Origin: Chromera velia
Taxonomy: Eukaryota
DNA: 52,304 bases
NCBI GenBank assembly: GCA_018398765.1
Contig: JAHBMJ010000294.1
Span: 1-52,304, forward strand
Direction: 5' to 3'
In this document: one piece after another, positions 23,382-52,304 of the stretch
Layout of the letters: each line of letters starts with the position of its first letter
How positions within the stretch are numbered: the stretch's first letter is position 1
The notes under the pieces: model-generated
What the model was told of the DNA's origin: nothing
The model's input: only the letters and a program-made list of their open reading frames with translations
The model's database searches: none
Program-made: the position numbers and the translations under genes

Positions 23382-24029
23382 ATGACTTCCTTTCATACAA
23401 CTTTGTCTCTGGCAGCATTGTTTCTCTTCTCTCTGTTCGTCTGTGGGAAGACCCAAGACAAGAGATCCGTGCACGTCGTTAATATGATTGTGTGGAGCAC
23501 AACCAACGAAGATCTCCGTGAGATGTTCAGTCAGATCGGCACTGTGGAGAGTGCTGAGGTGCAGCGGGAGGCCGATCGCCGCTCCAGAGGCTACGGCATT
23601 GTCATTTTTCAGTCTCTTGAGGAGGCCCAAGCAGCTGTTCTCGAACTTAACGGCATAGAGCTGGACGGCAGGACTATTTTGGTTAGACTAGAGAGGTCCG
23701 GGCCCAAAGAGCCGGAACGCCCTTCTTGCCGGGGCCCCCTTTCAAGAGACCAGCTGCCCACTGAAGAGACTGCCGGTTCCTCAAGGTCTGTGCATGTCAC
23801 AAATGTTGCCTGAAACACAGGCGACGAAGCTCTTCATGAGATGTTCAGTCATGTCGGCACTGTAGAGAGTGCTGAGGTGCAGCGGTACGCCGACGGCCGC
23901 TCCAAAGGCTACGGCATTGTTGTTTTCCAGTCTCCTGATGATGTCCAAGCAGCTCTTCTCCAACTCAACAAGACAGAGCTGGAGGGTAGGACCATCTTGG
24001 TTAGAATCGCCGGAGAGGAGGCGGGCTGA
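23382..24029 (+). pseudogene. Intronless two-RRM (Gbp2/Hrb1-like) gene with signal-peptide-like N-terminus and in-frame TGA at 23811-23813
   Basis: RRM1 has RSVHVVNMIVWSTT...RSRGYGIVIF and RRM2 has RSVHVTNVA*NTG...RSKGYGIVVF. ORFs 23382 and 23841 are in the same frame. Confidence 0.75.
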
Positions 24030-24993: not shown

Positions 24994-26603
24994 TAGTGAC
25001 CATGTTTGATTTAATTATATTTGATTTGATTTGATTTGATTTGATTTGAGCTTCAACCTCAAATATTTGATATTTGAGGTAAGATTTGAGGTTAACCTCT
25101 TAGGGTTCCTCACTGAGTCACTGACTTACTGTCACTCTGATCATTTTTCTCATGACAATAGTTATCAGAACATTTCTGATGTGTGTTTCAAAAATTTAAA
25201 AAAATATATACAAAATTATAACTTATCAGTTCTGTAAAAAAAATATGCCTGTATGGCAGTGTATATATACTAGTTACTGAGACTCACTCTAGTACTAATA
25301 GAGATTAAGAACGTAAAATTGATAGTAGATTTGAAATTGCATATGACTTTTTGTTGATACGATAAAGTTAGAACACGTACCAAAATTGAGATGACAATCA
25401 CTCAGCTTTATGGCACTTCCTTTTGCTCTTCTTCATGATCACTTTCTTTAATGTGAATCGAATTGATCGGTGGTGGGAGCTGCTGAGAGTTTTTTCTCTG
25501 GCTTTTCGGCTTTCCAGGAGTGGGTGCTCCTGGGCTTCTATTCGGTTGCAGAGAGATGACAACGGGGTGAGACGGAGAACCGCGCACACGTTTGCTATTG
25601 CTATTGGTGTTGGAACCGTCCTGTTTCTGGGCAGCTAAGTATACAGAGTTGGTAAGTTCGGCTACCTTCTATGCTGCGCCAGGGCCAACAACAAGCCCCT
25701 TGTGTTGGAGGTGAATATAGAGAGGTCGGTAGCCTTCCTCACAAGGAGTGATGACTTTCTCAGGAGCGGGAAGTTTCCCCCTAGCCTTCTCAGCATTTGC
25801 GTCTGCGGCCGCCTCCTTTAGTTTCAAATTGGTCCTCCCGCCGGGCCTTGCAGGAGCGGCCCCCCCTCCAGCACTGTCAGCAGCCCCCCCGTTGCCTGTT
25901 CCCTTGCCTTTCTGGAACTGCTCCACACCGACAGGGAATGGAGCAGCTGCACATGTTTATCAAACGTGATTATCAAGCCATGCTGATTAATGAGGTGGGT
26001 TTGAAAAGAACTGGTTGCCGCTGCTGCATACTCATGGCCACAAATAGTTTCTCCTTCCCCCTTGGCTCCTTGTATTTTCACCCGACACTGAATCACATTT
26101 GCCCCCTTTTGCACGGACCATATTTTTTTTGCGTACCCGGCTCTAAAAACAAATACCTCCTTCTTCCCGTTCGACCCTGTCGGATTGTGTGACATGTCTT
26201 TACGGGGTGTAAAATGTTTGCAGACGCTCAAAAAGGGGGCTGTAAAAGATGTTCCAGCACCAGAAAAGTCAAAACAGCTGTTTGGGAAAACGTTCAGCTG
26301 ATTGGTTTACCTGTGTATGAAGTAAAAGAGGGTGAAACATCAATTTTAGTGCAGCTCAAAACGTTTTTTTTTGAGAGCAAACCATCAAGATTTAGATTTT
26401 TTTATTTGAATCAGCATGCGTGACGGATTGGTACTTGCAAAAGTTTTTTTGGGACCTTCATATTTGAGGTTGAAAGTCATATTAATCAAATATTTGATCG
26501 TATTTGATAGGTCTTTTAACACTAGGTCCTCCCTGACTGGATATTTGATTTGAGCTTAAGCCCTACCTCAAATCAAATCAAATCAAATCAAACATGGTCA
26601 CTA
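24994..26603 (-). mobile_element. Non-autonomous hAT DNA transposon (1,610 bp) with BED zinc-finger remnant
   Basis: TIRs TAGTGACCATGTTTGATTT / AAATCAAACATGGTCACTA. Perfect 8-bp TSD GGGGCAGC (24986-24993, 26604-26611). Subterminal (ATTTG)n arrays. Confidence 0.92.
25824..26231 (-). pseudogene. BED-type zinc-finger ORF (transposase N-terminal remnant)
   Basis: KIWSV...VIQCRV...ICGHEYAAAATSSFQTHLINQHG fits the W...C...C...HL...H BED pattern. No DDE domain is visible. Confidence 0.7.
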
Positions 26604-32800: not shown

Positions 32801-35800
32801 CCAAAGGAAAGGAAGACTGAGGGTGCCGCCCTCCCACTGCTGCTCTCATCCACGCACGTGGCCTTCCTGTACCTGTGCGGAGGCCACACTACGAACCGAC
32901 GGCACGCCAGGCCGACAGGGTATCCGGCAGGGGGCATGTTCGGCTGTGTGAGTGGATACGGGTGGTGGAGGGTGTTGTGTCTGAGTCTCCGGGTTCCGTA
33001 GAAGACAGAAGTCCTGCACGCACGCGTGCGTGAACGAAAAACAAAAGCTGAGGTCACGCTAAGTCTCTTGCTGTCCTGATGAATTCTGTTTGGCGAGGCG
33101 TGTCGTATGGCGTGCCTCCCTCTGCTGTTCATGCTGTTTGTTTGGGAGTGAGGCCAGGACGGAAGCTTGCAGACGGACTGAAAAGTGGAGATGCACAAAA
33201 GAATAACAAAGAACGCTAACGCTGAAACAGCACACGATTGAGACAGAGAACAGACCAAAGGAAGGACTGGAAGACTGGAAGCGAGAGAGTCAAACTGAGA
33301 CACGACGCCTCTCTGTGTCAGCCAAGCAATCCCCCCCGACTGACCAGAAATGTTGTCTGGCCACGCGTATGTGTTCGGGTTGTCTTCTCATCGGTGCGGG
33401 GAATGGCATAGGCAACACCGGGTTGTTCGTCCTCAAAACGTCCAGGGCATCGTCGAGGCAGTCCTCGTGCCTCTGCATGGTGCGGAGTGCAGACTGGACA
33501 CTTCGAAAAGAGGGTTTGTCTCTGTCGTCCCACACATTCTTCAACATACGGTGACGTTCGAGCAAGTCCGAGGAGGCATTATGGATAATTCTCAAGGCTC
33601 CCTCAAGAGATGTTGACCCTGTGATGTGTTCAAACATCGGCATTTTGGGACCAGGCTCCAAGGGGGGAAGGTCTCTGTCAAGCTCCTCCTCCTTCCCCAA
33701 GGCCTGTGCCTCCGCTTCCTCTGCCCCGCGTCTCTCCCGTCTCCTTTTCAACGCCTGCCGTCTCCTGAACTCGACAGTGCGGTGGAAGTCTGAAGGGGTA
33801 GGGCGGGGGGTCGGGGGGTCGTTTTTCCACCAGTCATCGTCGTCTTTTGTGTGGGACCGTCCGAAGAGGTTGGGCACACCTGACTTCTTGCCCTCCTGCA
33901 GAGACCTTCTTCTTCTCTCAATCAGGGTCGGAAGGACCATGGGCAGAGAATGGGACGCAGAGGAAGAGGATGCTACTGCTGCGGTGACGGCGCGAGCAGG
34001 GGGCGCAGGGGGAGAAGAGGAGACGGAGGGGAAGGCAAAGGACTTCGGGCGGGGTTTCCGACGCCACTTGTACCTCTTCTGCTGCTGTTCTGCAGCACCC
34101 GAAGAGGCGACTGCCGTCACACCTGTACCTGAAGCACTGGCAGCAGCAGCACTCGCAGGAGACGGAAGCAAATTGGGGGGCAAGGGGTGAAGAGGAGGAA
34201 GCTGAGCCTCCGCCTCGGCCTGGGCATCTGCCCCTGCCTGCTCTCCTTCGTCTGCCTTTTCGTCCTCCTGTGCCGCTGTAATCTCTTCCAACGACGCACC
34301 CCCCCTTTCCCTGGACGGCAAATTTCCCTCCGATCCCCGGAATGAGACGCGGCGCGCCCCGTCCCGGAAGACCACTTTCTCAGCCACGGCAACGTTTCTT
34401 GGAGCGAGTGCGAGGCTGAAAAGCGAATGGAAGTTCACCACCGGATTCAACGGTACATCATACTCTCCTGCGACTGCGTGGAAGGTCTTGACGTCTAGTT
34501 CGTTCCACAGGGGGGAAACGCCAGGGCCCCGCTTTCCGACAGCACACGAGGGCACGGACCCTCCGAAAGAGGATCCTCCAGAGTGTTTTGCCTTCTTTCT
34601 CATGATGGTGCTGCGGCAAGAGCCGAAGATGGTCTTTTTGCAGAAGGGACAGGTCGCCTCGAATTTTTCCTCTTGGACTAGGTGGCATCCCTGGGTGGCG
34701 CCTGAAGCGCTCTTGAACATCGAATGATGAAGTCGTGCGGTGAGGGGTTTGGGGGGGTGTTTGAGCTTGGGCGGGGGGGCACTGGGGGGTTTGGCGGGTC
34801 CGGGTGTGACTTTTCTATGGGCAGTCGCGCCGAGGAGGGAGAAGGGCGTCCATGGAAGGGGAGAGGGAGACGGGAGGAGGCCGTCAGACAACCAGGAAAC
34901 TCCTGGGGGTGGGGGTGGGGGTGGGGGGGAGTTTGAATGTGAGGATGTGTGCGGAATGAAGGAAGTGTCGATTCCGAGGGGCACGAAGGAGGGAGGATGC
35001 AAGATGGGGGGGGGGGAATTGTCTTCTCCTTCTTTTCCGTTTTCGTTTTCGGAATCCGAATCGGATCCGTCTCCCTCCTTCGCCTTCTCCTTCTGAAGTC
35101 GGGCACTTCGCCGGGGTGGTCCCTTTCCTTTTTTTGATGCAGACAGTCCTTTTGGAGCTTTCTCTTCGCCTTGTCCTCCCTTTCCCTTGCTTTCTCCTCT
35201 TTTCTGCATCTTTTGACGTTCTGTTTCTTCGGCACTTTTCTTGCCTACTCTCTCGGAGAGTCTTCTTGAAAAGGAAGAAGCAGCAAGATGAGGGTGAGGG
35301 GGTGAGGGTGATCTCGATTTGGTTTCTTTGTCCCCTTCTGCGGAATGTTTCTGCAGCCCCTTTCCTTTTCCTTTCCGAGAGGACGGGGCTGCCTGTCCTC
35401 CTGTTTTCTCTGCCACTTTTCCCCCTTCCCCCTTTTCCACAGAGTCACTCTGAGGGACAAAAGTGACTCCTTCTGCAGTGATCTTCGGCATGTACGAGAT
35501 CCCACAGCAGGAGACGGGCTGGCACTGTTGGCGTTTTCTGATCAGGGAGGCCGTTTCTGTCGACCCCGGGCTTTTTGCCAACAGGGGAAGCGTGACGTCC
35601 CCATGACTTCCAAACGAGACGTGCTCCCTCGCCTTCGCCCCACTGATCAAAGGCTCTCGGCGTTGCAACTCACTGCACGAGGCGTAGAGACCCAGACGAT
35701 CGGCTGCAGGCCAGCCGGGCGTGTTTCGGACGACTGCTGAGATGAGTGTGGGCGTGATGGGAGAATTTGTGAGACAGGCTTGGAGGTACGAGTAGTCTCT

Positions 35801-38800
35801 CAATAGCTGATCTCGTCTCTTGACTAACCAACGAAGGGGAGTGAGACCATCTGGAGGTTTGGTCTTGGAAGTCAAGTAAGAGGATAAGGCTTCGGGGGGG
35901 TCTGTGTGGGGGTCTGTGACTGTTTTGACGAAGTCTTTCAGGCGCGCTTGAGAGAGAATGGCTTGGGAGAACTGAAGGGTGCTTGACTCAAAAAGAAGGG
36001 AGGGACGGCTGAGAAAGAAGGCACGGGCTGTCTGGAACAATTTCTCTGGACCGAGACCGTCAACGGACACTTCAGCCTTGTCTCCGCTTTCTCCTAATCT
36101 TTGCTTTTCTTTTGTCTCACTTCTCCCCCCTTCGTTTCCTTTGGACGAACTGGAAGAGGAGGAGTCGACAGTACTTTTCGCGTTCTCTCCCTTCTCTTCT
36201 GTCCCCTCAATTTCTCTGAAGTTCTCCTCCTCGCGAAAGAAATCTCTGTTCGCAGCGACTCTGTCTCTTTCGTCTGAAAGACCTAGAGCGACGGGATAGA
36301 TCAGACGCGACAGCTCGGAATCCAACCACGCCAACCGAGATCCACGAACTTTCAAATCGTTCTTCTCATCTTCACTGCTACTCTTTGACGAATTGCCTCT
36401 GGACTCTCCCCTCTCTGGCTCCTTCTTCTCTTTGCCACTTTTCTTTGCCTCCACTATCACCCCTCCGTTTTTCTTCCGCCCTGACCGTCTGAGAGACGGC
36501 CTCTCTGCATCTCCCGCATTCTCCCTGCCCCTTTCTCTCCCCTTCCGTTTCCCTTTTCCTTCCTTCAACTCCTCTGCGTTCCCCCCACCTGCTGCAGAAG
36601 CAGAAGCAGGAGACCCAGTCTTCTCTTTCTTCTTTCCTTCGTCCTTCTTTTCTGTCGACACACTCCGCGAATCCTTTCTCTCCTCCTCCTCCTTCTCCAC
36701 TTCCACACACCCCCTCACCCCTCCAGACTTGATACCTGACTCCTCCCCCCNNNNNNNNNNNNNNNNNNNNNNNNNNNNNNNNNNNNNNNNNNNNNNNNNN
36801 NNNNNNNNNNNNNNNNNNNNNNNNNNNNNNNNNNNNNNNNNNNNNNNNNNNNNNNNNNNNNNNNNNNNNNNNNNNNNNNNNNNNNNNNNNNNNNNNNNNN
36901 NNNNNNNNNNNNNNNNNNNNNNNNNNNNNNNNNNNNNNNNNNNNNNNNNNNNNNNNNNNNNNNNNNNNNNNNNNNNNNNNNNNNNNNNNNNNNNNNNNNN
37001 NNNNNNNNNNNNNNNNNNNNNNNNNNNNNNNNNNNNNNNNNNNNNNNNNNNNNNNNNNNNNNNNNNNNNNNNNNCAGCCGAGTCCGGCCCCCCCCCTTCC
37101 TTCTCAACTTCCACAGTCTCAATGTTGGCAAGCGCAGAGTTCAAGTCAGACATTTGCGAAGAGCTGAAAGGGCCCCCACCTCCACCCAGGGCTACCGCAG
37201 GCCCCGGCAGAAACCGCATGCGCCCCCGTCTTCTCAAAGAGTAACCTTGCGGCTCGTCAGACTCAAACAGCGGGCCCAGTTGCGGAAAATTCTGCAACAT
37301 CGGAAGCGGATCGTAAAGCGCTCTCTCCGCGGATCGTAAAGCGCTTTCGGTCTGCTCCGCGTCGCCTGCTTGAAAGGTCGACAGCCCCTTCTGCAAGACA
37401 AACGACAAGGGGCGTAAATTCTTTGTACGCGGAAATGTTCACACACGCGAGTATATGCACATGACCACACTTTCCTTTAATCGGGAGGGCAGAAATTGTA
37501 ATGAAGACACCTAACAGGCAGTCCGATCCAGAAGAAGGGAACAGAGCAGGAGGGCAGAAAGAACGAAAGCCAGGAAAAACAGAACCGCATGCGACCCCTT
37601 TACTACAAGGAACATCTATGAGTATTTACTGTGTGAGAATCACGGTGCATATAGACAGGACAGTTGGGCTTTGTTTGGTGATTCCTCCCAACCAACCCTT
37701 CACCGTCTACACACCTTTTCCCTCTCCACAACTTTCCACAGAAACCGAAAGACCTCCTGAAAGGCAGGGAGACGCGAAGGATCTTCAGCCGAGACGCGAA
37801 GCATAGCCAGTGTCTGCTGTGCGAGTCGGAACTCTTTTCGTCTTCGTGCGAACCCCTCAAGGACATGCTCATCGTCCGTCTCTACCTTCAACTTCAACCT
37901 GCACGGCCTTGCGGCGACCATCTGCGCAGAAGAAGAGGAAGAAGAAGAAGAGGGGCATTCAGGTGCCCCCTCTTCCTCTTCCACTTTCTCTTCTGCCTCA
38001 TCCTCGGTCTCTCCAATTTGCAAACTCTTCGTGTTCTGCGCAAATCCGTAGTCCAAAACTTTCAGCATGGTCTCAAAACCCTCGAAGGAGACTTTGAACA
38101 GGTTATCGGACCGAAGTTGAATCCCGTACGCATGATGGAACAAGACCTGTAGACAGTTCGTCAAACCGTCAACAGCAAAACCAACGGCCAAAGCCCAACT
38201 GCTCTCCTGAGCCTCCACCGCTGGAGGCGACGCAGGAGGTACCAGGGGGGGCGGTACGGAGATCACCTTGCCGGCAGTTGCTGGGGGGTTTGAGGCATTC
38301 ATGAACTCTCGCCTGCCGTGCGGACGCCCGGGCCCGACCCTCGCGCTTGTTGCCCATGGCAGGGGCAACCATGTGAAGGGCAAGGGAGAGGCTGGAGAGA
38401 GTTTCAAACCTGTACCCTTCTCCTTCTGTTTCTCATTTGCTCGACGGATGAGTGACATATTCTCTTTGTCTCCTGCATTCTTCTTCTCTTCACGTCCTTT
38501 TCTCATCAAAGCCTCTCTTTCTGCCCTGCGTAAGTTCCGGGAAGAGGGCGCACCCATATCGGGTGACTGGACAGCCCTCGGGGCACGGGGGGGACTCTTG
38601 GACTCCTTTTCTTTTTCCGTTTGTTTTTCTCTTTGTTTCCCTCCTCTTTCGTCACTCTGAAAGGGACGCGGCCGTTTTCGGTCGCCCTTCCCCTCTTTGT
38701 CTCTGTCGCCTCTGCCAGCAGGAGTGGCTGCCTGGATGGTGTGAATGGTCTCGATCGCTCTCAACTTGGCCTGTCTGGCGTTGGCACTTCTGCTGGATTC

Positions 38801-41800
38801 CTGCCCATCCTTTCTTGCCGAGCGCGAGGCTTTGCCTCCACGAGACGGAGAGACGGCAGTGGGGTGGCGTGTCGGAGTGACGAGACGGGAGGCACGGGTC
38901 TGTCCTCCTCGTCGTCCTTCTCCTGCTCCTGCTGGTTGGGGAGGGGGGGGGGATGCCCGAGAGGTTTTGTTGAGAGGAACTGCGGATTTCCCTTTCTCTT
39001 CCTTCTCCTCTCTTTCTCTCTTAGCCCCCCCCCCTCTTCCTCTCCCTTTCCCCTCGTCGTTCTGGAGAGCTCTCTGCAGCGTCCTTGACGGGCCTGCGGG
39101 AGATGAGATGGATGCGTGCACTGAGATGATGATATGAATGTGCGAAGCGGCTGTATCTGTGTACGCGTGAAGAGCCTTCCGCTTCATCCTTGCCGGGCTT
39201 GATGCGGAGGGAAGCTGACGGGAAGAGAGAAGAAGGCTAGCGAGAGGAAGGTGGTGATGCATTCAACAACCGGCAGTGTCTTCAGTTGCCGTATTCTATT
39301 TCTCTGAATGAGGGGCAACGAAAAGGAATCCAAAAGGACCACGAAAGCGAGTAAAAGACACAGGAAAAGGGGGTACAGAAATGAATTGAACGGGGCGGGA
39401 AAACGTGTTTTTAATTCGGGAAAGAGATTCCAAAATAAGGCTAGGAAGGTCGACTGCCTCACTGACTTTTGGCCAAATCGCTTTGAGATGGTTCTCTCTT
39501 TGAGGCTGAAGGAGAACGGGAGAGTTGGGGGGACTTTTCTCTTTTGTCTCCCCCCCCCATTCCTCCCTTCTCCCTCCTTCCACAGCCGTGCTGTCGGTGC
39601 TCTCCATTTTCGGGTTCACGGTCGCTTCCAGGGGCAGAAAGGGATGGGGTGGGTGAAGGGGGGGAAGGGGCCGGTGGGAGTCGGGCTGAGATCGAAAGGG
39701 CTGGCAATTCGCACCGTCCGATGGGCACATACATGAGGGGAGGGGGGGGGGCAGATGCGTTTGCCTGGATGGGCCCTGAAGACTCCATTTGGAAAAACCG
39801 TTTTGCAAATTTGGAACCTCTCTTCAACTTCTTCCTGCTCTCCTTTCCTCCCTCCTTAGGAACCTCTTGAGGTTCTCCTGAGCTCTCTTTTTCCTTTTTT
39901 TCTTTTTCTTTGTCTCTCTTCGGTGAGGAAAGTCCCTTGTCCTTTCCTCGTCCTTTCTTCTCAGGGGGGGGAGGAGAAAGAGGGCGCTCAAGGGAAGAAG
40001 GCTTCGAGCGGACAATGGAACCGTTCACCATTACTACTGGAGACGGCTTCCGATTGTTTCGATTCGCTTTGTCTGTCTCCAGAGGTCCTCCCTGTCCACT
40101 GTCCTCATTCCTCACATTCACGCCATCTTGTGTTCCCATGTCCTCATCCTCATTCTTCTCTCCTGCTGCTGCTACTGCTGCTGCTGCTGCTGCTGATGCT
40201 GATGATGACGATGACACTTCCGCCTGCCTGCGTACAGCCCCGTCTCCCTCCTTCGAGTCTTTCGTTGCCTCGGAACCTGGAATGCTTGTCAAAGCTCCTC
40301 TCTTTACCCTTACCCGAAGTCGCGTTCTCTCAGACACTCCCCCCTGCTCTTTCTTATCCTTTGGACCTTCCTTTTTCTCGTCAAACTTTCCTTCTCCCTT
40401 CTGAGGATGCACAGGCGCACCCCATCCGGCTCCTCCAAGACCCTCCTTCTCAGACAACCCCCCCTGCTTCATAGATTCTTTCTTCCCTTTCGCCCTCCCT
40501 CCAGACTTATCTGCACAATCGCCCCCTCCAACTCCTTCATACACACCCGACGACCCACTCCCTTTCTCTCCCACACCGCTCTCTCTCGTCTCTTCCGCAA
40601 CCCCCGCCCCTTCAGAAGTTTTCAGCAACTTTCTCGGCCCACCGTCTTTCCCCGCACCCCCTGTGGAAAAAAATCTCTCCTGTACGAAATCTGCACAGAC
40701 CCATGCACATAGAAAAGAGAAAGCATGAGACTCAACAGAAAACAAATCCGAAAAGTGGTCTTAAATGCAAAAGCACGAGCGCTTCACTTCTCTGGAAAAG
40801 TGAATTTCTTTTTCCTCTTTCTTCCTTCCGTCTCTCCGTCTGTCTGTGTCTGTGTGAGTTGCGGCTGGAGGAAGGCACACGCACCCACCGAAGAAGACCA
40901 TCTCACTCAGACAGAGGCACACTGATTGCTCGACACATACACAGACAGATAGATTCTACACTGAGGCCACGGGACCACGCAGACAAAGAAAGAAGAAGAA
41001 GAAGAAGCAGGCAGGGCACAGACCCACCGACCGAATGCGTTGAGAGGATCAAAAGTCTGCACCCCAAAACGTCTCCACACTGGAAGGCCCCGAACGTACG
41101 AATTCTGTACAAGAACCCTGCGCTGTCTCCTCTCTCTTGCCCTCTCCTGAAGCACCACCGCCAAATCACCCCCCCCTTCTTTCGCCTCAACCTCACTCTC
41201 CGCTCTTCCTGCAGCCCCCACCGCACTCTTTGTCTCCGACCCACACAGACATTCCCCCCCCTCCCCAAACGCCTTTGCTCCCTTTTCATTTCCTTTTGCA
41301 ACCTCCTCTTCTTCATCTCCCCCTTCCGACTCGCTATCGCACTCCTCTGCCACGCTCTTGAACTTCATACGGAGCCTCTCGGACCCCGACCGGATCAGAG
41401 ACCTCATCCACACACCCATCCACATACGAGCTGATTGTAGTCCAACACACTGGAAAGGCTGCGGGCTGTCCAACGCAACTTTCTGGTGGGGACCGACGGG
41501 CAAAAGAGGGGTCAGGTTGGTCAGGCAACACAGAAAACGGGGCTCACACGCGAACATGTCTGGTCCAAAATGGACAGAGGGCGGCGCCTCGGCCAGAATC
41601 TGGTGGAGACGCGTCAAGCGGGGAGGGCGCGTTTTGCGCGCACGGCAAGTGCCTTCCCCATCGATCCGTTGCTGCTCTGCAACTAGACGCCCAACCTCCT
41701 CCATGTCGAAGAGACGGGTGGTAGGAGACAGAGAGGCGTCTGCACGGGCTCCTTCTTCTCCTTCGTCTCCTTTCCTCTCCATTTCCCCAGCTTCTTTCTT

Positions 41801-44800
41801 CTGTGACGCCACTTCCTCAACTCTCTCACCTTCACTTACCACCACTTTCTCTCCCCCGTCTCGGTCTTCCTCCTGTCTGTCCTTTCCCTCTGCTGACTTC
41901 CCAGAAGGACACTCAGCAGATCCACCTGCAGGGGAGGGAGGAACGGAGAACCCACAGACATCTCCCTGCTCCCCCAGCTCACTCTCATCACCTTCGAGCT
42001 CCTCCACCCCACTTCGGAACTGCATGACCGAAGGCTGGTATCCCAGCACCTCTTTCATTCCGTCCTCTCTTCTCTCTTTGTTGCGCGCACCCTCAAGCAA
42101 TGGGGCCCCTTCACCCTCTGCTGGATCGTCCTCTCGGGACCTCTCCATTAGCTCGGCATACCCAACAGGACCTCCGCTCTTCGCAAAGTTCTGACAGGAT
42201 CGAAGGGCACTCACGACCTTGAAGAGAGCCTGGGGGAATAGTGGCGTGACCTCAGGATGAAGAGGCATCCACACTGCGGGGGCAGCAGTTTGCTTCTGTT
42301 GTCTTTCGTTGTCGTTACTTTCCCCCCTCTCTCTTTCTCTGTCTTTGCGCAACAGAGAGATTCCTCCCGATGCCGCTTCTCTGCAGAGTCGGAGTGCCTT
42401 CTCTCCCACAGAGAACCCGGACGACAGTCTTTCTGAGAGAGGGACGGAGGGACGGTCTACGAAAAGATGGAAAGGGAGATCTGCAATTACTCGTGTCTGC
42501 TGCAAGCAGAGCGTTGCGATCCGAGGATTCGTGCGGGGATCTGGGAGGTGTGTCGGGATGGGTAGTGTGAAAGGAGGATCTTCCAGACACCACCGGGAGA
42601 AGGGCCCTCTGTACGCCCCCCCATCCGAAGGACTGTCGGGATTGAATCTTCGAGAACTCAGCAGAGCGTCGAGAAGGGGGTTCTCTTTCGTGTCTGTCCA
42701 CATAACAGAAAGAGGCAAGGGACCTGACGCACGCAGAGCTACAGACTTACACGATCTCAGAAGCGCCCTCTCACAACCCGGTAATTTCTTCAGAGATTCG
42801 AATGACTTCTCCTCATCAAGCGAACGAGAGGGAGGACTTAGTCTTGAAGCGAGGGAACCGAGGGGGGAGGCAGAATGGAAGTGAATTGCCGTTGCCCCCC
42901 CCCCTCCTGCTTGCGGCCCTGTAGCAGCAACGGGGGGAGATAACACTTCCCATATCAACCCCCCGCCGAGAGACGCCCCGATACCTCCCCCACTGACCGA
43001 AGGCGGCTCTGCTCCTGTGATCGGTGCAAGTCTAGGGGGTTGGGGCACAGTAGAGGCGCGGTGCTTCCCTCCATGCTGCCCCTTTCCCCCCCCCGTAGAG
43101 TTGCGAAGAGCGCGTGTTGCCGTGGCGAGTGCCTGTTCTCTCTCGAGTGTGCGGGCTGTTTCGAGAAGTTCTGCCGTTCTGGAGAGACCCGAGAGGCCCC
43201 CCTCAGCGAACAGACTGGAAGGCAAAGGAGAGGAACGAGATAGAGAGAGGGACAGAGAACCCTCACACACCCCAACAGACGCACTCTCACGAGGGCCCTC
43301 CAAGGCTGCCTTCCACCTACAAGGATGGGGAAAGACAGAAAGGAAGGAAGGATGGGCGGGACACATGCATGCAGAGAATCAAAGAGGGCCGGTGACCAGG
43401 AAGACAAAGGAGAGAAGCAGCGGACACAGCAATAGAGAGAGTGCGCATTGTCTACAGGTGGTGTACACAATGAGACTAATCATAGACTCGTCACTGTTGT
43501 TACGAAGTTGAAAATTCGTACTCATTTCAGTCCAGGTTGGTCTTTGACAGACTTACGATGCGACTGCTGGCTAAACACACGAATACAAAAAAGGGAGATC
43601 GGCAACAGAAGAACTGGCGAGGCAAAATTCTCTCAACCCAGACGCATTGTCCGAGCCACTGCGCCTCAATAGAATGAACTGTTTCTCGTTTACCCATTGA
43701 AGCAACCACCTTCGACTCCAATCGAAACAAAATCGGTGCTACTTACTTGTCAATGTCTCTTTCAAGGTTCGCGATTTCATTGAATCCCGTCTCTGCGCAG
43801 GTCATCATGGCCTGTGTCCTTGCCAGCATGCCGACCAGAAAGTTATTCACTTCTCTCGACGCACACATGGCCATCCAGGCACTTGCCTCCTCGGCAGAGG
43901 CCGTCGAGACGTCCCAAGTAGTCAACCCTCCCTGGTAGTGTGCCGTTCTGTCGGGTGCAGGGAAACGACTGGTCAAAAACGCAGCGCGGAGATTCGCTAT
44001 TTGTTCAAACGGGTTTCTCACCCCCTCCAACATCGTTTCAAAGGGTCCCCCTGTGAATTGACTCAAAGTGGAGCCGAAATTCAAACCGGGAGGAACAAGG
44101 GGAGGGAAGTTTGATGGGGGTCTCTTCCTTTCGCCATCGAAGTCCCCTTCCCCCCCTCCAGGCCCTGGAGGCCCCTTGTCTCTCTTCCCCGCCCCCCCGT
44201 CCTGCTGTCGAGTCTTTGTTCGCGAATCCTTTGCTCCTCCCTTCCCTCCTGTCTTCTGCTTCGGAGGCGCAGGGGAGGAGGGCGCAGGGCTGGAAGGCTC
44301 GGACAACTGCGCGGCCAGACCCGGCAAGGGCAACGGTGGGTGGGCCTGCAGGAGGGTGAGGATATTCGGGAATCTGCGGAAGTCCTGTGCTGGTGGTTTG
44401 GTCTTCTTCCACGAATGTGTCGGCACAGGGAGAAACACGGTCTCATCACAACCACCTGACACCGACACTGTCCCTGCCGCGCCTTTAGACACAAACACAG
44501 GTCGACTTTGAAGTGTTGCTAGGTGGTCATCAAAAAACCCACTCAGTCGGAGGAGTTTTCGATGGACACCGTCATTCCGTCGTAGAAGGCCTTCAGAGCG
44601 TCGGAGGGTGATGGCGGCGTGTCTGAGCACCATAGCAACTGCGTTTCGCAATGCAGCGTTCGAAGGAAGTGTGGGATTCGGGCCTAGGGCTGCCACAGCC
44701 ATGGCGGCGACGGTCTGACCAGGCTCACCGCCAGGCAACCCGTTGAGCCCCCCGCCGCCCCCAAAGTTTTCAAACTCGAAAGGCCCGAGGAAAAGTAAAT

Positions 44801-47800
44801 TCTGGGCAAACGGATTCGGCAGAGGACCCCCCCCTCCACCTGCGGGGCCGTCTGGGAGGGCATCTTCAGGGGGGGGGGGAAGAGGCGGGAGGGGGGGGCC
44901 GGCTTGGGGTCCCCCTCCGAAGGGCACTAGCGTCGCCTGTACAGTAGCCGGCACCCCGGCTGCGCCCAGCATGGCTTGAAGCAAATTGGCAAACTGCCCC
45001 GGCGCAGGACCCAGAGCGCCCCCCCCCGGTCCGGCGCCCCCTAGAGGCCCTTCCTCGTCTCCTCCTACGTCCATATCTGAATCACCACCTTCGCCTTCCT
45101 CTGGCTGACCTGCACCGCCTCCCCCTCCTCCTACCCCCTCACTTCCACTGCCTGCGCCCATCACGGCGTCGCCATCTGCCGGCTGCTGCTCTGGTACAGG
45201 TACGGGCCCAGTCACCGGTGCTGCAGCTGCTGCGGCGGCGGCAGGTGCGACTGGTTCGTCCACTTCTGCAGGAATCGGGAGGGGCAGAGGGCTGTGGGGG
45301 GTCAGCGGAGGGGGGGCTGAGGAGGAAGAGGGGGCAAAGGGGCTGAGGAAGGCCGGTGGCTGCACACTTGCCGGTGGAACAGGTGGAGGTAAAATGTCTC
45401 CGTGTGCTGGCTGATTGGATGCAGAGGAAGACGAAGAGGAGGACGAAGAGGAAGAAGAGGGGTTCGGAGGGTGCGGTTGCTGCTGCTGCTGTTCTTCTTC
45501 TGCTTGTGCCTTTTGTTCCGGCTGTTCAGGAGCAGACTTCACTTGAGGGGGGTGAGAGGAAAATTGCTGAAGGGAGGGGAACGGGACGGATGAAGACAGC
45601 GACGAAAAAGGAGCAGACGCAAAAGAAAGTGGCGGAGGCTTCTTGGCATCACCCGCGTCTCCTGAGACGGCAGCGCCTGTCTCGAGGGGTTGTGCTGCGG
45701 CGCCTGTGCCTGTCCCTGTGTCAGGGGCGCCTGTCAGACACGGCACAGCCAAAGACGAGGAAGAAGAGGAAGAGGAAGAAGACGCAGAGGATGGTAGAGG
45801 CCCTGCTCCCCTTCCTCCACCGAGAGAGAAAGAGGGCGCAAAGGGAAGCCCTCCCCCCCTCCCACCTCCCCCTGCCGTGACAGGAGCCAGAAAGGGAAGA
45901 CCCCTTCCTCCTCCTCTTGGTGCCCCTGCCTGTTCACCCGAGGAGCCTTTCATAGCCGCAGAGAGAGAAGGAAACGAAGAAGATGCCCCTCCGGTCTCTG
46001 CTGTTCCAGACGCCGCTCCTCCTCCTCCTCCTCCCTCTGCCTGTGCTTGTTCGTCTGTGTTCACATTCGGTTTGGTTGTGGCAGGTGCAGATGCAGACGG
46101 GGACAGAGACGGACTCAGCAACCCACCCCCATTCCCTTCGCTATCTGGAGACGGAGACGGAGACGGCAAGTCCACCAGGAGACCGCCTTGAGGAGACCTG
46201 CAGGGAGATAGAATGGAAACAAAAGAAGGCAGGGGAAAGAGCACGGGTGCATGTGCAGACGCGCCGTTTGACCACAAGTTTTGCTTGCAATGATGCCTCC
46301 CTGTCTCTCTGTCTGTTTGCCGTTCACAGAACGGAACGTGACCGAAAAAGGAAACAGATGCCGAAAGGAAGGAACGCGGTCCTTTCCTGTTGATTTGAGG
46401 GAGGCTCTACCAGGAGGTAACATCCTCACTCCAAAAAAGATAAACAAACAAGAACAACAAAGAGACCACACGGCCACTTTGACAGACCAACTTCTGTCAG
46501 ACTGCACGAGACAGTCAGAGTCAAGGTTCTGGCCGGTGTGAGAAGGTGAGAAGCTGTGTGAAAAAAATAAGAAAACGAGACGGACAGACAGATCGACCCA
46601 CCCACCCAGGTGCCGAAGAACCCGAAGACTGAGGAGGAAGATCCCCCCCTCCCCCTGCTAGAGCTTGGGGGAGGGCCACGTCGGCACCTGTAGGCTCTCC
46701 TCCTCCTTCCGTCTCTGTTGGTACTAGAGGGAGCGGGTTTCCTCCTTCTCCTCCTCCGGTTTGGGTGGGCACAGGGGCAAGGGGAGGCGGTGGAGGGGGA
46801 GGAGCCAGAGGGGCATCTGCTTGACCCGGTCCCGGAACAGTCCCCGGTGGCGGTGGAGAAGGAGGCGGATCTCCTCCCTGTGTCCCTGATCCTGGCTGCT
46901 GCATGCTGTCCATCTTTTTTCGAATTTTGATCAGAGTGTCAATTTGCTGCTTGACCCCCTGCAGTCTGTTCAGCTGCCTCTCCTGATTGGAAATTTGCGT
47001 CCTCACACCCGACTCTACTGTGTGCCACTCTGTGGGCTTCAGAGTGCGTTCGACATGCGCGGTCAGAATCTGCAGTCACAAAACAGTGGTTGCACGATGA
47101 GGCAAGACGAACGAGAGCACGTTTTTGACGAAGAACAAAATGTGACTCCCTTTGCGGGCTGCCTGAAAGGTGCGGATGGACGGCACCATCGGACGGCATT
47201 CTGGCCAGGATAGTAGGATACAGAGCGGGCGGAAAGGAACGTAGAAGAAAAGAGGGGCACGGGAAAGGCAGAGAAAACAGCAGAGAGCTTTTGTTTCGGA
47301 AAGTGTCACTGAGCCTGGGTGCTTACCGTATGACCTTTCTTTCAAGACAAGATTTTGCACTGCTTGAGTCTGCATCTCTAGAAAGAGGACGCGCAAAAAC
47401 GGAGAGAAAACAAAACAACAACGGCAGTCCGTCTGTGTCCCTTCTTGCACCTTCCCCCGACCCTTCCTTTCCCACCTGTCTCGGCAGCGGAGGAGCGTAG
47501 CAGCATTCCTCCGGCATAGTAGGGGTTGTGAGTTTGAGTCCTGTCTTCTTCGGGAAGTCCCTTCTCCGGACCCTCAAAGAGAAGATGATGGACCCCCGCG
47601 CCGCCTGACTGCAGTAGACGTTCTTCCACGCCGCAGCGCTACAGCACCCGTGCCCTCTGACACCCTGGGCCTCCATCAACTCGTGAAGAAGAGGGGAGCC
47701 CAGAAGGACGGCCTGGCAGTTTCCCAGACGTACAGGCGTCTTCTTGCGGTCGTCGTGAACACACGTGTACTTATTGAGTCTCAGAGGCATAAGGAGGGAC

Positions 47801-48408: not shown

Positions 48409-48666
48409 CTTTCTGCCTTTCTTTCAGGACAAAAATGAACCCCTTTCGTTAAGAAAAGATGTCATTTCGTCAATTAATGAGAGTTCCGAGCACGAGAAAG
48501 TTGCATGTTTTTGTCCTCCTGCAACGATGCGCAGATCTTGTGACATCCTGTGACGACGTACGAAGACAAGCAACGCTTTTCGATCGTCGGATGTTGCTGA
48601 AGAGACAGCAATTAAGGCGATTATATAAAGGCGTCTCCCACACATGATTAGGTAATCCAACTAATG

Positions 48667-49143
48667 CAGGCTCTCTAGAGCGGCCATTTTTAGCACCGCG
48701 GCGCGGTTCCCTCCAGGCCCCTCCGCGGCGGCGCGCCCTCCCATTTGGGACATGGCCCCATATACCGTCAAAACGGCTTTTTCTGCGCGCCACAGGCGCC
48801 ACAAAATTTTTTTTAAGGTGTTTCAATGATAAATTTGATCAATTGCTGATCAATTTGGTTCAACTTACCTCAGAAAAGGTAAAGAACGGAACAATCACGC
48901 CGCGGTTCCCCCCTTTCTTCAAGGTTTTACAACCGCGGCACCGCGGCGTTTGACCGTAAATGCCGTGGTATCTAGAAAGAATCAGAACGGCGCAATGCGT
49001 GCGCGATTATTTGCAAACATGCAGAACGGCGCAATGCGCGCGCGAATATTTGCAAACATGCAGAAATAAAATGCATGCAAATAATCGCGCGCGCATTGCG
49101 CCGTTCTGATTCGGCGCAATGCGCCGTTCTGATTGAAAGCCTG
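48667..49143. mobile_element. 477-bp hAT-like non-autonomous element inserted in the host element's TIR
   Basis: Termini CAGGCTCTC / GAAAGCCTG. Perfect 8-bp TSD AACTAATG (48659-48666, 49144-49151). CCGCGG-rich left part, repeated and inverted CAGAACGGCGCAATGCG units on the right. Confidence 0.85.
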
Positions 49144-49918
49144 AACTAATGAAGAGTCAAATGTATGGCAGCTACACTAGCAAAAAAATGAGCCCCATTT
49201 TTGAAGGGCATCTTGGCTGTGGACTTTGTCTCTATTCTTTTCTATTATGGTGGTCTCAGTATAAGCACTCCAATGGTGGTCCCGCTTGCAGTCACCAGGC
49301 AGGCAGTCAGAGAAAAGAGAGCTCTGCAAGGAAGGGGGTTACACATGCAGAAAGAAGATAAAAAAGTCAAATCTGCATTGCATTCTTCCTCCCCTCTGCT
49401 TCTTTCTACACATGCTTTTGCTAGCTTTCACTACCAGAGTAACCAAAACAGCCGTATTTTGACCTCAAACCTGTCAGGTAATCTTTGCAAAATATAGGGG
49501 ATCTTCAATCAAGTATCCAATTTTTAAGATGTCCATTCTACAGAAAACGACATGTTGCCATATTGCAATGCATTTACACAAAGCACAGAAAGGGTGTGCT
49601 GGACGCATACCGTAAAATAGTGAGGTAAACCATGGGACCAGCCAATCCCGGGGTAAGCCGAACTAACGCGCACTGCCGCTACACGGGACGCCCGCAGCTC
49701 AAAGACCAACACACGCATACAGGCTTATGGAGGCGCCGCCATACCAGTGTATATTAGAAGAGAAATAAATAAAATAGAAATAAAATGGAATTAATTCAGT
49801 CAGCTGCGTATAGCCTAGATTGAGTAAACAACACTAGCTTGTAAAGCTTCTAGAAGCAGTTTGGAAGTGAACCTTGAACTGACAGACTTTCCGTAGTAGA
49901 GATCTAACCAAACTAAGT

Positions 49919-50606
49919 CTAGGGGGTAGCACTTCATATATGGGTAGCAAGACGCCATTTTCTGGTGGGGCTTGATATATATGAACTATAATAAATAAAA
50001 GTTGATCAAAAAAATGAGTAAATAAAGCAGTATTTGCACAATTTGAATTTATTCTTCATTTGTTTCTAACGAATCTGATATTTTTAGCATATTTGTATAA
50101 AAAATGGAAACTTCTTTGTTACCACGATTTGGCGGATGGCGGGGCTAGCGGGGGATAAAATTTTAATTTTTGCATAAATGTATTTTATGAACAAGAATGA
50201 ATGTGCAGGTGATATTTAAACAAAATCGGTGACCAAGGAGTAAAAAAAAATAATTGTGGCACTAGTTTTAGCTTGTTTTGATGAAATAATTTATGAAAGG
50301 GGCTTTAAAGTCATTTTATACTGGCGGGAACGCTTGGCGGGGCCACCCTATGGGCGGGGGTGTTGTTTCGCTTCCCACCACGAAGGAGCAATCCCCGCCA
50401 GAGATCAACTCCCGCCAGATCGTGGCGACATCGCTTTGATGGCCCGCCAAAGCCCCGCTATGATAAAACAAAGCCCACCATTATTAAAAACGAGTAGAGC
50501 ATGATTTATTGTGCAGAGTGTTCCAAATATGACCTCCTAATATATTATAGTGACATCATTTTAGACCCCGCCAAACTACTGTCCTAGTAGAGTATTACCC
50601 CCTAGG
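49919..50606. mobile_element. ~690-bp TIR element nested within a ~1-kb insertion (49611-50650)
   Basis: TIRs CTAGGGGGTAGCACT / AGTATTACCCCCTAG (13/15). Flanking direct repeat AACTAAGT (49911-49918, 50607-50614). GGCGGG words in the left half mirrored by CCCGCC in the right half. Confidence 0.75.
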
Positions 50607-51350
50607 AACTAAGTGCGCTCACTTAAGAGAAGAGGAGTCACCTCCTTATGCATACTGTTGCTTGTTTTCCTTACCTGTTGCATGATATATATAACTTGCA
50701 ACCGTTCAATAGAATTTACACCGCCCGCCCTGCATTATCTACAGGCAAGGTCTCTGCTACTGAGCTGTTTCATGTAAAGATTCATAAACGTTCCCGCTTC
50801 ACGGTCAAAGCAGGTATGTAGAAGCTTGACTAAGAGAGGAATACATGTATAGACGGAGGGGTCGACATGCTCATAGAATTCTACTGTGCGCAGCCCCAGA
50901 AAGCACCTGTGCATATGAATTTATATTGGGTGACTCTTCATAATTTGGATTGAGGAGACAGGAGTGAATATGTGCTTCTCTGCTGTCTTTGCAGGCCTGT
51001 CGGACGCCTCTGTGACCATGCGCACACCTGGCCCCTCCCTTCATTGCACTCTTTGCTCTCTTCAGTCAGTAACTGACTATCTACCACTTCTCTCTACTCT
51101 ATGTTCTATACATGGTGGACTCTTTCCTCTCTTATCTGTCTCTCTTGTCCCGTATTGGTCTCTTTTGCTCGCAAAGTTTAACCCCGCAAAATTGTCAGCA
51201 CGACGAAAGATTTTTTCTTTTCTTTTCTTTTGCTCCCCCTGTAGCAGGCCAAAAAATAGGGAAAAAATTGAAAGAGTTAGATTTTACTCAGTGCATCTTT
51301 TGTCACAGCCCCAACTTCCCATATTGTTCCTTTCTGAAAATAAAGTTTCC

Positions 51351-52120
51351 TTAGGCAATCCAAATTATGAAGAGTCACCCAATATAAATTTATATGCACA
51401 GGTGCTTTCCGGGGCCGCGCACAGTAGAATTCCATGAGCATGTCGACCCCTCCGTCTATACATACATTCCTCTTTCAGTCAAGCTTCCACACACCTGCTT
51501 TGACCGTGAAGCCGGAACGTTTATAGATCTTTGCATGAAATAGCTCAGCAGCAGAGACCTTGCCTGTGCAGAATGCAGGGCGGGCGGTGCAGATTCTGTC
51601 AAACGGATGCAACAGGTAAGGAAAGCAAGCAACAGTATGTATCTAGCATACCCTTTCTGTGCTTTGTGTGAATGCATTGCTATATGGCAACATGTCGTTT
51701 TCTGTAGAGTGGATATCTTAAAAATTGGATACTTAATTGAAGATCTCCTATATTTTGCAAAGATTACCCGACAGGTTTGAGGTCAAAATACGGCTGTTTT
51801 GGTTACTCTGGTAGTAAAAGCTAGCGAAAGCATATGTAGAAAGAAGCAGAAGGGAGGAAGAATGCAATGCAGATTTGACTTTTTTGTCTTTTTCTCTGCA
51901 TGTGCAACCCCCTTCCTTGTAGACTCTGAGCTCTCTTTTCTCTGACTGCCTGCCTGATGACTATAAGCGGGTCCACCATTGGAGTGCTTGTACTGAGACC
52001 ACCATAATAGAAAAGAATAGACGCAAAGTCCACAGACAAGATACCCTTTAAAAATGGGGCTCATTTTTTTTGCTAGTATAGCTGCTATACATTTGACTCT
52101 TCACTAGTTGGATTACCTAA
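51351..52120 (-). mobile_element. Intact ~770-bp non-autonomous TIR element (MITE-like)
   Basis: 27-bp imperfect TIRs TTAGGCAATCCAAATTATGAAGAGTCA / TGACTCTTCACTAGTTGGATTACCTAA (4 mismatches). TA immediately outside GG...CC. No credible coding capacity. Confidence 0.88.
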
Positions 52121-52304
52121 AAAAAATTTATTTCGAGACAGAGAGAGAGAAGAGAACAAAGATGATTCAATATGTTGTAGTGCTGGTATACCCTCTTCTT
52201 TTATGAAACTTTCAAAGCGTTGCTCTGTCTGCAGGAGTGAATATGTGCTTCTTTGATAGGGGGGTGAAATGCTTTTAGTATGGGGGGGGGGGGGGGGGGG
52301 GGAA

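What the first reader, a model, noticed from the sequence alone, without database searches (positions are those of the whole stretch)
49144..52120. RIP-like CpA->TpA hypermutation between two inverted transposon copies in an apparently non-fungal genome
Seen in sequence: I aligned 49144-49610 plus 50651-50952 by hand against the reverse complement of 51356-52109 (~750 bp). Approximate manual counts are ~56 substitutions: ~32 CA/TG vs TA, ~8 at CpG, ~9 other transitions, ~7 transversions. Examples: TTGCAG/TTATAG, GGTGTGTGGA/GGTATGTAGA, GGGTGTGCTGG/GGGTATGCTAG. The TA state occurs in both copies and on both strands, while many CpGs remain intact in both. Established: CpA->TpA in duplicated DNA is the hallmark of RIP in Neurospora and other ascomycetes (RID-dependent), and ordinary CpG decay gives TG/CA, not TA. 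Inference: this genome, which looks like a chromerid alveolate, may have a repeat-targeted CpA methylation or deamination defence. I am not aware of such a system being described there.
Basis: partly seen in the sequence, partly recalled or inferred. Interest (0 to 1): 0.88.

Follow-up and report, generated by a model that had tools for sequence, protein, structure and literature searches.

The report
RIP-like transposon hypermutation in Chromera
Dead transposon copies in this algal genome (Chromera velia, judged by matching proteins) carry far more C-to-T than T-to-C changes, mostly at CA and CG; this resembles fungal repeat-induced mutation and likely comes from a host DNA-methylating enzyme, but neither the enzyme nor strict targeting of repeats is shown.

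Summary
The two inverted copies are a 764-bp TA-flanked MITE. They differ at 54 of 744 columns: 46 transitions, 30 of them at CpA/TpG. A roughly 300-copy majority form points to C>T as the direction. A LINE remnant (28 C>T against 3 T>C) and a hAT-like remnant (14 against 1) show the same order, CpA >= CpG > CpT > CpC. Pooled CpA against CpT/CpC: odds ratio 3.9, P=8e-8.

One correction: per site, CpG mutates about as often as CpA (P=0.40), so CpG is not spared.

The host is Chromera velia. Introns and synonymous sites keep CA over TA (0.77-0.79), repeats do not (0.40-0.61). But one single-copy intergenic tract looks like the repeats (0.52), and no SNP control was available. Fungal RIP indices and strand clustering were not met.

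Best reading: slow, methylation-linked C>T decay in repeat-rich DNA, possibly by a DNMT4/RID-class enzyme; a published table lists one in the sister chromerid Vitrella. True RIP outside fungi is possible (about 0.2). My searches found no report of this in chromerids.

The parts
51352..52119 (-). Copy B: complete non-coding MITE (51354-52117) with about 25-bp terminal inverted repeats (GGYAATCCAA...GAAGAGTCA) and a TA on each side, Tc1/mariner-like by target site
   Evidence: Terminal-repeat motif at 51352-51369(+) and 52102-52119(-). Other genomic copies end at the same place: loose ends at 51351/51352. No Pfam hit in six frames.
48649..50956 (+). Copy A: the same MITE in inverted orientation, in three pieces (48649-48666, 49144-49610, 50648-50952); its right terminal repeat lacks the last bases
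   Evidence: Terminal-repeat motif at 48649-48666 and 50939-50956 (3 mismatches); alignments
48667..49143 (.). Insertion 1 in copy A: 477-bp MITE-like element, ends CAGGCT(C/T)TC, 8-bp target duplication AACTAATG (hAT-type by length, recalled rule), internal palindrome 48979-49112
   Evidence: Sequence; end check; self-BLAST
49611..50647 (.). Insertion 2 in copy A, flanked by ACGCATAC/ATGCATAC (8-bp duplication with one CG>TG difference)
   Evidence: Sequence; end check
49919..50605 (.). Element nested in insertion 2: terminal inverted repeat CTAGGGGGTA, flanks AAACTAAGT/GAACTAAGT, subterminal GGCGGG motifs
   Evidence: Sequence; end check
50953..52252 (+). One diverged unit of a high-copy head-to-tail (or circular) repeat of about 1.28 kb: about 0.5 kb of spacer plus MITE B; the next unit starts at about 52232
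   Evidence: A contig of depth 843 in X3/X4 runs from 52125 back to 50953 with 110 letters between. An X2 contig has depth 4418 against 14-15 for single-copy contigs. Second unit start found.
11429..13164 (+). Second test family: 3' part of a high-copy LINE-like retrotransposon; in-frame stop TAG where the majority has CAG, Tyr where the paralog and majority have His
   Evidence: Paralog P0002 with an RVT_1 domain; all 39 majority differences listed; contexts
25411..26195 (-). Third test family: internally deleted transposase-like remnant (BED-finger- and hAT-like motifs by eye; no Pfam support)
   Evidence: Paralogs P0003-P0007; contexts; Pfam negative
8540..11100 (.). Control: single-copy intergenic tract with repeat-like composition (GC 0.40, CA/(CA+TA) 0.52, CpG o/e 0.57)
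   Evidence: Single-copy depth and 0 differences in X1 and X2; composition; no significant Pfam hit in its ORFs
14531..15178 (-). Host gene for a ciliary B9-C2 protein; a marker of a flagellated, non-ascomycete host (its absence from ascomycetes is recalled, not tested)
   Evidence: PF07162, E=3e-35

Best explanation
Transposon copies in this chromerid carry a strong excess of C-to-T changes in the order CpA >= CpG > CpT > CpC, on both strands and in three unrelated families, likely because a host cytosine methyltransferase, possibly of the DNMT4/RID class, acts on repeat-rich non-genic chromatin and the marked cytosines would then deaminate over many generations. Shown: the spectrum, its direction, its spread over three families, and the different composition of genes and introns. 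Inferred: the methylation, the enzyme, and the restriction to repeat-rich chromatin. It works like a weak RIP in outcome, since it breaks frames (Gln to stop, His and Cys to Tyr), but it looks gradual rather than burst-like.
For: MITE pair: CpA 30/124, CpG 6/32, CpT 7/102, CpC 3/72. Of the 33 transitions among the 40 rows shown (of 107), 28 have T in copy B where the high-copy majority has C. LINE copy, all rows shown: C>T 28 of 849 C sites against T>C 3 of 885 T sites, P=1.5e-6; CpA 12/214, CpG 5/143, CpT 7/270, CpC 4/222. hAT-like remnant against P0007: 14 C>T in the window, 1 the other way; CpA 7/81, CpG 3/35, CpT 4/69, CpC 0/90. Four other genomic copies change 5 of 22 His/Cys to Tyr and 0 of 9 Tyr back. 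Pooled odds ratios: CpA against CpY 3.9 (P=8e-8), CpG against CpY 2.5 (P=0.01). C/(C+T) before A is 0.79 at synonymous sites and 0.77 in intron-rich DNA but 0.40-0.61 in repeats, while before C it barely differs (0.45-0.46 in intron-rich DNA, 0.45-0.55 in repeats). The LINE spectrum would settle at 11-26% GC, against 52% in intron-rich DNA. A host-gene duplication (RRM) shows no CpA skew: 5/25, 5/20, 4/29, 4/20. PMC10538959, supplements 1 and 7, lists Vitrella CEM15752 as DNMT4, with DNMT1, 3, 5 and 6 not detected.
Against: No methylation data and no Chromera methyltransferase were seen; the enzyme rests on a sister genus. Its link to fungal RID is only moderately supported, and a 2026 review calls RID fungus-restricted. 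The single-copy tract 8540-11100 has repeat-like composition. The RRM control is coding and small, and differs from the MITE pair only at P=0.058. In the LINE alone the CpA skew is modest (P=0.043 against other contexts). Selection or GC-biased conversion could keep genes and introns CA-rich under a genome-wide bias. For copy A the direction rests on sites being absent from a truncated table.
Confidence: 0.5

Rival explanations
1. True RIP-type defence: homology between repeats is sensed directly and a RID/DNMT4 orthologue converts C to T in bursts, perhaps at a rare sexual stage.
For: CpA ranks first, as in Neurospora (PMC3318451 passages), and both copies are hit. The load is patchy: one part has 16 transitions in A against 6 in B, the other 8 against 16 (P=0.01). 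The tightly linked inverted pair has the strongest skew (odds ratio 5.2 against 2.6 in the LINE; difference P=0.22). CpA makes up 30 of 46 changes separating A from B but 3 of 10 shown changes they share (P=0.07). Vitrella has a DNMT4-class protein.
Against: CpG is hit equally. No strand runs in the LINE copy (17 runs, 14.7 expected). TpA/ApT is 0.85 and (CpA+TpG)/(ApC+GpT) is 1.53 in the MITE, which misses the usual RIP cut-offs (about >0.89 and <1.03, recalled). A roughly 300-copy head-to-tail form, the ideal RIP target, keeps its cytosines in the majority sequence, although contig assembly hides rare variants.
Confidence: 0.2
2. A genome-wide mutation bias toward C>T at CpA and CpG, visible only where selection and GC-biased conversion are absent (dead transposons and intergenic DNA).
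For: The single-copy intergenic tract 8540-11100 has the same composition as the repeats. No neutral single-copy substitution spectrum could be measured.
Against: Intron-rich DNA is 52% GC with TpA o/e 0.38-0.43 and CpA o/e 1.16-1.33, far from the simulated equilibrium (GC 11-26%, TpA o/e 1.1-1.2, CpA o/e 0.7-0.8). Synonymous sites keep CA/TG in 370 of 467 cases. The intergenic tract could be an old repeat below the 80% likeness cut-off.
Confidence: 0.23
3. The direction is the reverse (TpA to CpA/TpG), or a cytidine deaminase unrelated to methylation is responsible.
For: A pairwise alignment alone cannot give direction, and earlier scan notes report the reverse pattern in a diatom (unchecked). 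6 of 7 CpT changes in the LINE are TCT, though that site is common there.
Against: At 14 of 21 transition sites where B has T and A has C the shown majority letter is C; only 1 of about 24 sites where A has T is shown with majority T. The window's LINE and hAT-like copies carry stops and Tyr where paralogs have Gln, His and Cys. The preference lies in the 3' base, whereas known cytidine deaminases prefer a 5' base (recalled).
Confidence: 0.07

Closest known systems
Repeat-induced point mutation (RIP) of Neurospora crassa and other Pezizomycotina (RID/DNMT4-dependent)
   Same: Polarised C>T in repeats, CpA the top context, both copies of a linked duplication over 400 bp and over 80% identical affected, coding capacity destroyed
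   Different: Alveolate host; CpG hit equally; low load, no CpA depletion, no strand runs; high-copy families keep an intact majority form; homology sensing, sexual timing and RID dependence untested
CpG decay of methylated transposons (DNMT1/DNMT5 organisms; TpCpG hypermutation in Pucciniomycotina, PMC3318451)
   Same: Slow C>T accumulation in repeats on both strands, CpG elevated (odds ratio 2.5 over CpY) and depleted (o/e 0.44 in the MITE)
   Different: CpA is at least as mutable as CpG and supplies most changes; the sister genus Vitrella is listed without DNMT1, DNMT3 or DNMT5
Non-CG (CHH/CpA) methylation of transposons by plant RdDM, fungal DIM-2 or animal DNMT3
   Same: All cytosine contexts raised over T>C; rank order close to the CG > CA > CT > CC preference recalled for DNMT3
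   Different: No 5mC data and none of these enzymes shown for Chromera; CpA is not below CpG here
Diatom, Tribonema and Vitrella DNMT4 clade (PMC9998398, PMC10538959)
   Same: Candidate enzyme class in a sister chromerid
   Different: Function stated as unknown in diatoms; no mutational signature linked to it in the passages read; Chromera orthologue not checked

Membership tests
RIP (Neurospora type) | Polarised C:G to T:A transitions in repeated DNA | tested here: met
   28 against 3 (LINE); 14 against 1; 28 of 33 shown (MITE B)
RIP (Neurospora type) | CpA preferred over CpT and CpC | tested here: met
   Pooled odds ratio 3.9, P=8e-8
RIP (Neurospora type) | CpA preferred over CpG | tested here: inconclusive
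   Pooled odds ratio 1.4, P=0.40; few CpG sites
RIP (Neurospora type) | Both members of a duplication are mutated | tested here: met
   14 TA states in A, 16 in B
RIP (Neurospora type) | CpA depletion and TpA excess past the usual RIP indices (cut-offs recalled) | tested here: not met
   MITE TpA/ApT 0.85, substrate index 1.53; no class below 1.1
RIP (Neurospora type) | Strand-coordinated clusters from single rounds (recalled feature) | tested here: not met
   17 strand runs against 14.7 expected in the LINE copy; only one copy tested
RIP (Neurospora type) | Confined to repeats over about 400 bp and over 80% identical | tested here: inconclusive
   Genes and introns differ from repeats, but a single-copy intergenic tract does not; no SNPs available
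RIP (Neurospora type) | Needs RID/DNMT4 | not testable with these tools
RIP (Neurospora type) | Acts in premeiotic nuclei of the sexual cycle | not testable with these tools
   Needs crosses or lineages
CpG methylation decay | C>T excess confined to CpG | tested here: not met
   CpA rate equal or higher in all three families
Non-CG transposon methylation | 5mC at CpA, CpT and CpC in repeats | not testable with these tools
   Only contigs were served
Tc1/mariner-type MITE | Short non-coding element with terminal inverted repeats and TA target duplication, many dispersed copies | tested here: met
Tc1/mariner-type MITE | Autonomous partner with a DDE/DDD transposase and the same ends | not tested

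The most novel reading that the evidence does not exclude
Chromerid algae run a RID/DNMT4-dependent, homology-triggered C>T mutator on repeats, that is, RIP outside fungi with a CpA/CpG target. This would give the orphan DNMT4 clade of diatoms and Vitrella a function and move the origin of RIP-type defence far beyond ascomycetes.
Probability: 0.2. Interest if true: 0.92.

Novelty: new variant of a known kind. Interest (0 to 1): 0.68.

Why it matters
CpA-biased hypermutation of repeats is treated as a fungal hallmark. A polarised CpA/CpG signature in three transposon families of a free-living relative of apicomplexans points to an undescribed cytosine-modifying activity in alveolates. It also offers a direct test of what non-fungal DNMT4-class enzymes do, which the papers read call unknown. 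Even the milder reading (non-CG methylation decay) would be a first look at cytosine modification in chromerids, as far as my searches reach.

Tried and rejected
- Whole-genome analysis: no genome held.
- More full copies: metagenome scan for the terminal repeat gave 0 matches.
- RNA: no RNA holder listed; this says nothing about expression.
- Neutral SNP control: X1 and X2 show 0 differences over the single-copy contigs listed for 7800-11465.
- Structured RNA or rDNA origin of the repeat unit: only sub-threshold hairpin matches, mostly in the palindrome.
- Coding origin of the MITE: no Pfam hit.
- Taxon by B9 search: only the window's own protein at E<=1e-20.
- Search for longer relatives of the BED-like ORF: none; the full scan then found 4.
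- 47 ORFs of AT-rich tracts: two weak sub-cut-off Pfam hits; Atlas blank for 9351-9824.
- The 842-bp identical direct repeat (18329-19170 / 19391-20232) abuts an N at 19171 and was dropped as a likely assembly overlap.
- The 22552 intron repeat misaligned and was dropped; the other short repeats there are too small to test.
- Literature: Chromera + RIP 0 papers; Vitrella + RIP 0; Chromera + methylation terms 0; Chromera + 5mC 2, unrelated; searches listed nothing on chromerid methylation or RIP by title or abstract start. PMC5890265 has no mention of Chromera. 12 of 23 supplements of PMC9998398 and 12 of 16 of PMC4501334 were searched without a relevant hit; the unread files could bear on Chromera methyltransferases, and subscription journals are not covered.

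Full report
Observation. The two inverted stretches are real (arms 49352-49613/51632-51893 at 93% and 50696-50952/51356-51612 at 90%). A two-part alignment gives 744 columns with 46 transitions and 8 transversions. Taking C as the ancestral state, the changes per available site are CpA 30 of 124, CpG 6 of 32, CpT 7 of 102 and CpC 3 of 72. CpA exceeds CpT (P=5e-4) and CpC (P=3e-4) but not CpG (P=0.64). TA states fall in both copies (14 in A, 16 in B) and on both strands.

What the element is. A motif scan found the same terminal inverted repeat at 48649, 50956, 51352 and 52119 (5 matches, one of them unrelated at 17602; 0.17 expected). Copy B is a complete 764-bp non-coding element between TA dinucleotides, a Tc1/mariner-like MITE. 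Copy A is the same element inverted, carrying a 477-bp insertion (8-bp duplication AACTAATG) and a 1037-bp insertion that itself holds a nested element. Public contigs show other dispersed copies ending at 51351/51352. They also show a high-copy form in which the MITE and about 0.5 kb of spacer repeat head to tail: one contig of depth 843 runs from 52125 back to 50953. One X2 contig has depth 4418 against 14-15 for single-copy DNA, about 300-fold.

Host. Paralogs of two remnants in the window are named Chromera velia gene models: P0002 (81% identical over 52% of the query) and P0003-P0007. The window also has a ciliary B9-C2 gene. Runs X1 and X2 hold 196 and 200 Mb of contigs; the published Chromera assembly is 193.6 Mb with about 30 Mb of transposons (PMC4501334, passages). 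The contig is not fungal.

Direction. A pair cannot tell CA>TA from TA>CA, and earlier scan notes claim the reverse process in a diatom (unchecked). One search shows 40 of 107 differing places. Of the 33 transitions shown, 28 have T in copy B where the majority has C (13 CpA, 6 CpT, 5 CpG, 4 CpC). At 14 of 21 sites where B has T and A has C, the majority is shown as C. Only 1 of about 24 sites where A has T is shown with majority T; the rest are absent from a truncated table, so direction in A is likely but not fully shown. A and B also share changes against the majority, which fits a root on the majority branch.

Second family. For the LINE remnant 11429-13164 all rows were shown (39 rows, 3 outside the element dropped). 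There are 28 C>T among 849 C sites against 3 T>C among 885 T sites (P=1.5e-6), plus 5 transversions. By context: CpA 12/214, CpG 5/143, CpT 7/270, CpC 4/222. The window copy has TAG where the majority has CAG and Tyr where the paralog has His, so it is the derived one.

Third family. The transposase-like remnant at 25411-26195 differs from P0007 at 22 of 262 codons: 14 C>T in the window, 1 the other way, 6 transversions, 1 multi-step. By context: CpA 7/81, CpG 3/35, CpT 4/69, CpC 0/90. Four other genomic copies turn 5 of 22 aligned His/Cys into Tyr and none of 9 Tyr back (29 differences in 475 residues, 3 of them start-codon artefacts). Pooled over the three families, CpA against CpT/CpC gives an odds ratio of 3.9 (P=8e-8), CpG against CpT/CpC 2.5 (P=0.01), and CpA against CpG 1.4 (P=0.40).

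Is it targeted? The direct control failed: X1 and X2 are identical to the window over single-copy DNA. Indirect controls favour a compartment effect. C/(C+T) before A is 0.79 at synonymous sites (370 of 467, from 3841 codons of eight long open frames taken as coding) and 0.77 in two intron-rich tracts, but 0.40-0.61 in the repeat and AT-rich classes. Before C the intron-rich and repeat classes barely differ. The LINE spectrum would equilibrate at 11-26% GC with CpA o/e 0.7-0.8, whereas intron-rich DNA is 52% GC with CpA o/e 1.2-1.3. An internal RRM duplication of a host gene shows no CpA skew, though it is coding and the contrast with the MITE pair is only P=0.058. Against strict targeting, the single-copy tract 8540-11100 has repeat-like composition (0.52). 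It may be an old repeat or plain intergenic DNA.

RIP or slow decay? For RIP: CpA ranks first, both copies are hit, the load is patchy along the pair (P=0.01), and the linked inverted pair has the strongest skew (not significant). Against RIP: CpG is hit equally, the load is low, CpA is not depleted (TpA/ApT 0.85, substrate index 1.53; cut-offs recalled), there are no strand runs in the LINE copy, and high-copy forms keep their cytosines. It therefore works like a weak RIP but is not filed as RIP.

Candidate enzyme. PMC10538959 (supplement 1 part 1, supplement 7 part 2, and passages) lists Vitrella brassicaformis CEM15752 under DNMT4, with DNMT1, 3, 5 and 6 not detected. Its tree groups the protein with diatom DNMT4 (78.6/92), next to the clade holding Neurospora DNMT4/RID (94.2/86). 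PMC9998398 (passages) calls the RID-diatom DNMT4 link moderately supported and the function in diatoms unknown. A 2026 review (PMC13297926, passages) says RID is restricted to fungi. Chromera itself is not in that table, and I could not check its proteome. RIP's published criteria come from PMC3318451 (passages).

Verdict. The signature is real, polarised and general across transposon classes in this window. My searches found no report of it for chromerids; subscription journals were not covered. Odds: methylation-linked decay in repeat-rich chromatin 0.5, genome-wide bias 0.23, true RIP-type defence 0.2, other 0.07. Interest 0.68.

Noticed in passing
window 50953-52252: The MITE sits inside a roughly 1.28-kb unit that is present head to tail (or as a circle) at about 300 times single-copy depth and has a cytosine-rich majority form; the window holds a diverged unit at the contig end.
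   Followed up: partly
window 5860-6400: Telomere-like 11-bp minisatellite (CACTTTGGGTT / CACTTAGGGTT) inside a gene region; only 1 of about 45 CA sites reads TA.
   Followed up: partly
window 18329-19170 and 19391-20232: 842-bp 100% identical direct repeat next to a single N at 19171; likely an assembly overlap.
   Followed up: no
window 23343-24005: Two tandem RRM domains, 83% identical at DNA level, with an in-frame stop between them in the frame read, beside the transposase-like remnant.
   Followed up: partly
window 8540-11100: Single-copy, AT-rich, CpG-poor tract between two repeat ends, with a 158-aa open frame (9351-9824, minus) of no clear family.
   Followed up: partly
window 48979-49112: Long imperfect palindrome with a 39-bp tandem repeat inside insertion 1; gives sub-threshold microRNA-hairpin matches only. 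This element is CpG-rich (o/e 1.48), so it may be young.
   Followed up: no
window 33290-46406: Coding DNA strongly avoids TpA (o/e 0.24); C is used at 82% of synonymous C/T sites before A but only 48-55% before other bases.
   Followed up: partly
window 13088-13146 and 13344-13402: The LINE 3' end with an (ATCA)n tail occurs twice, 256 bp apart.
   Followed up: no
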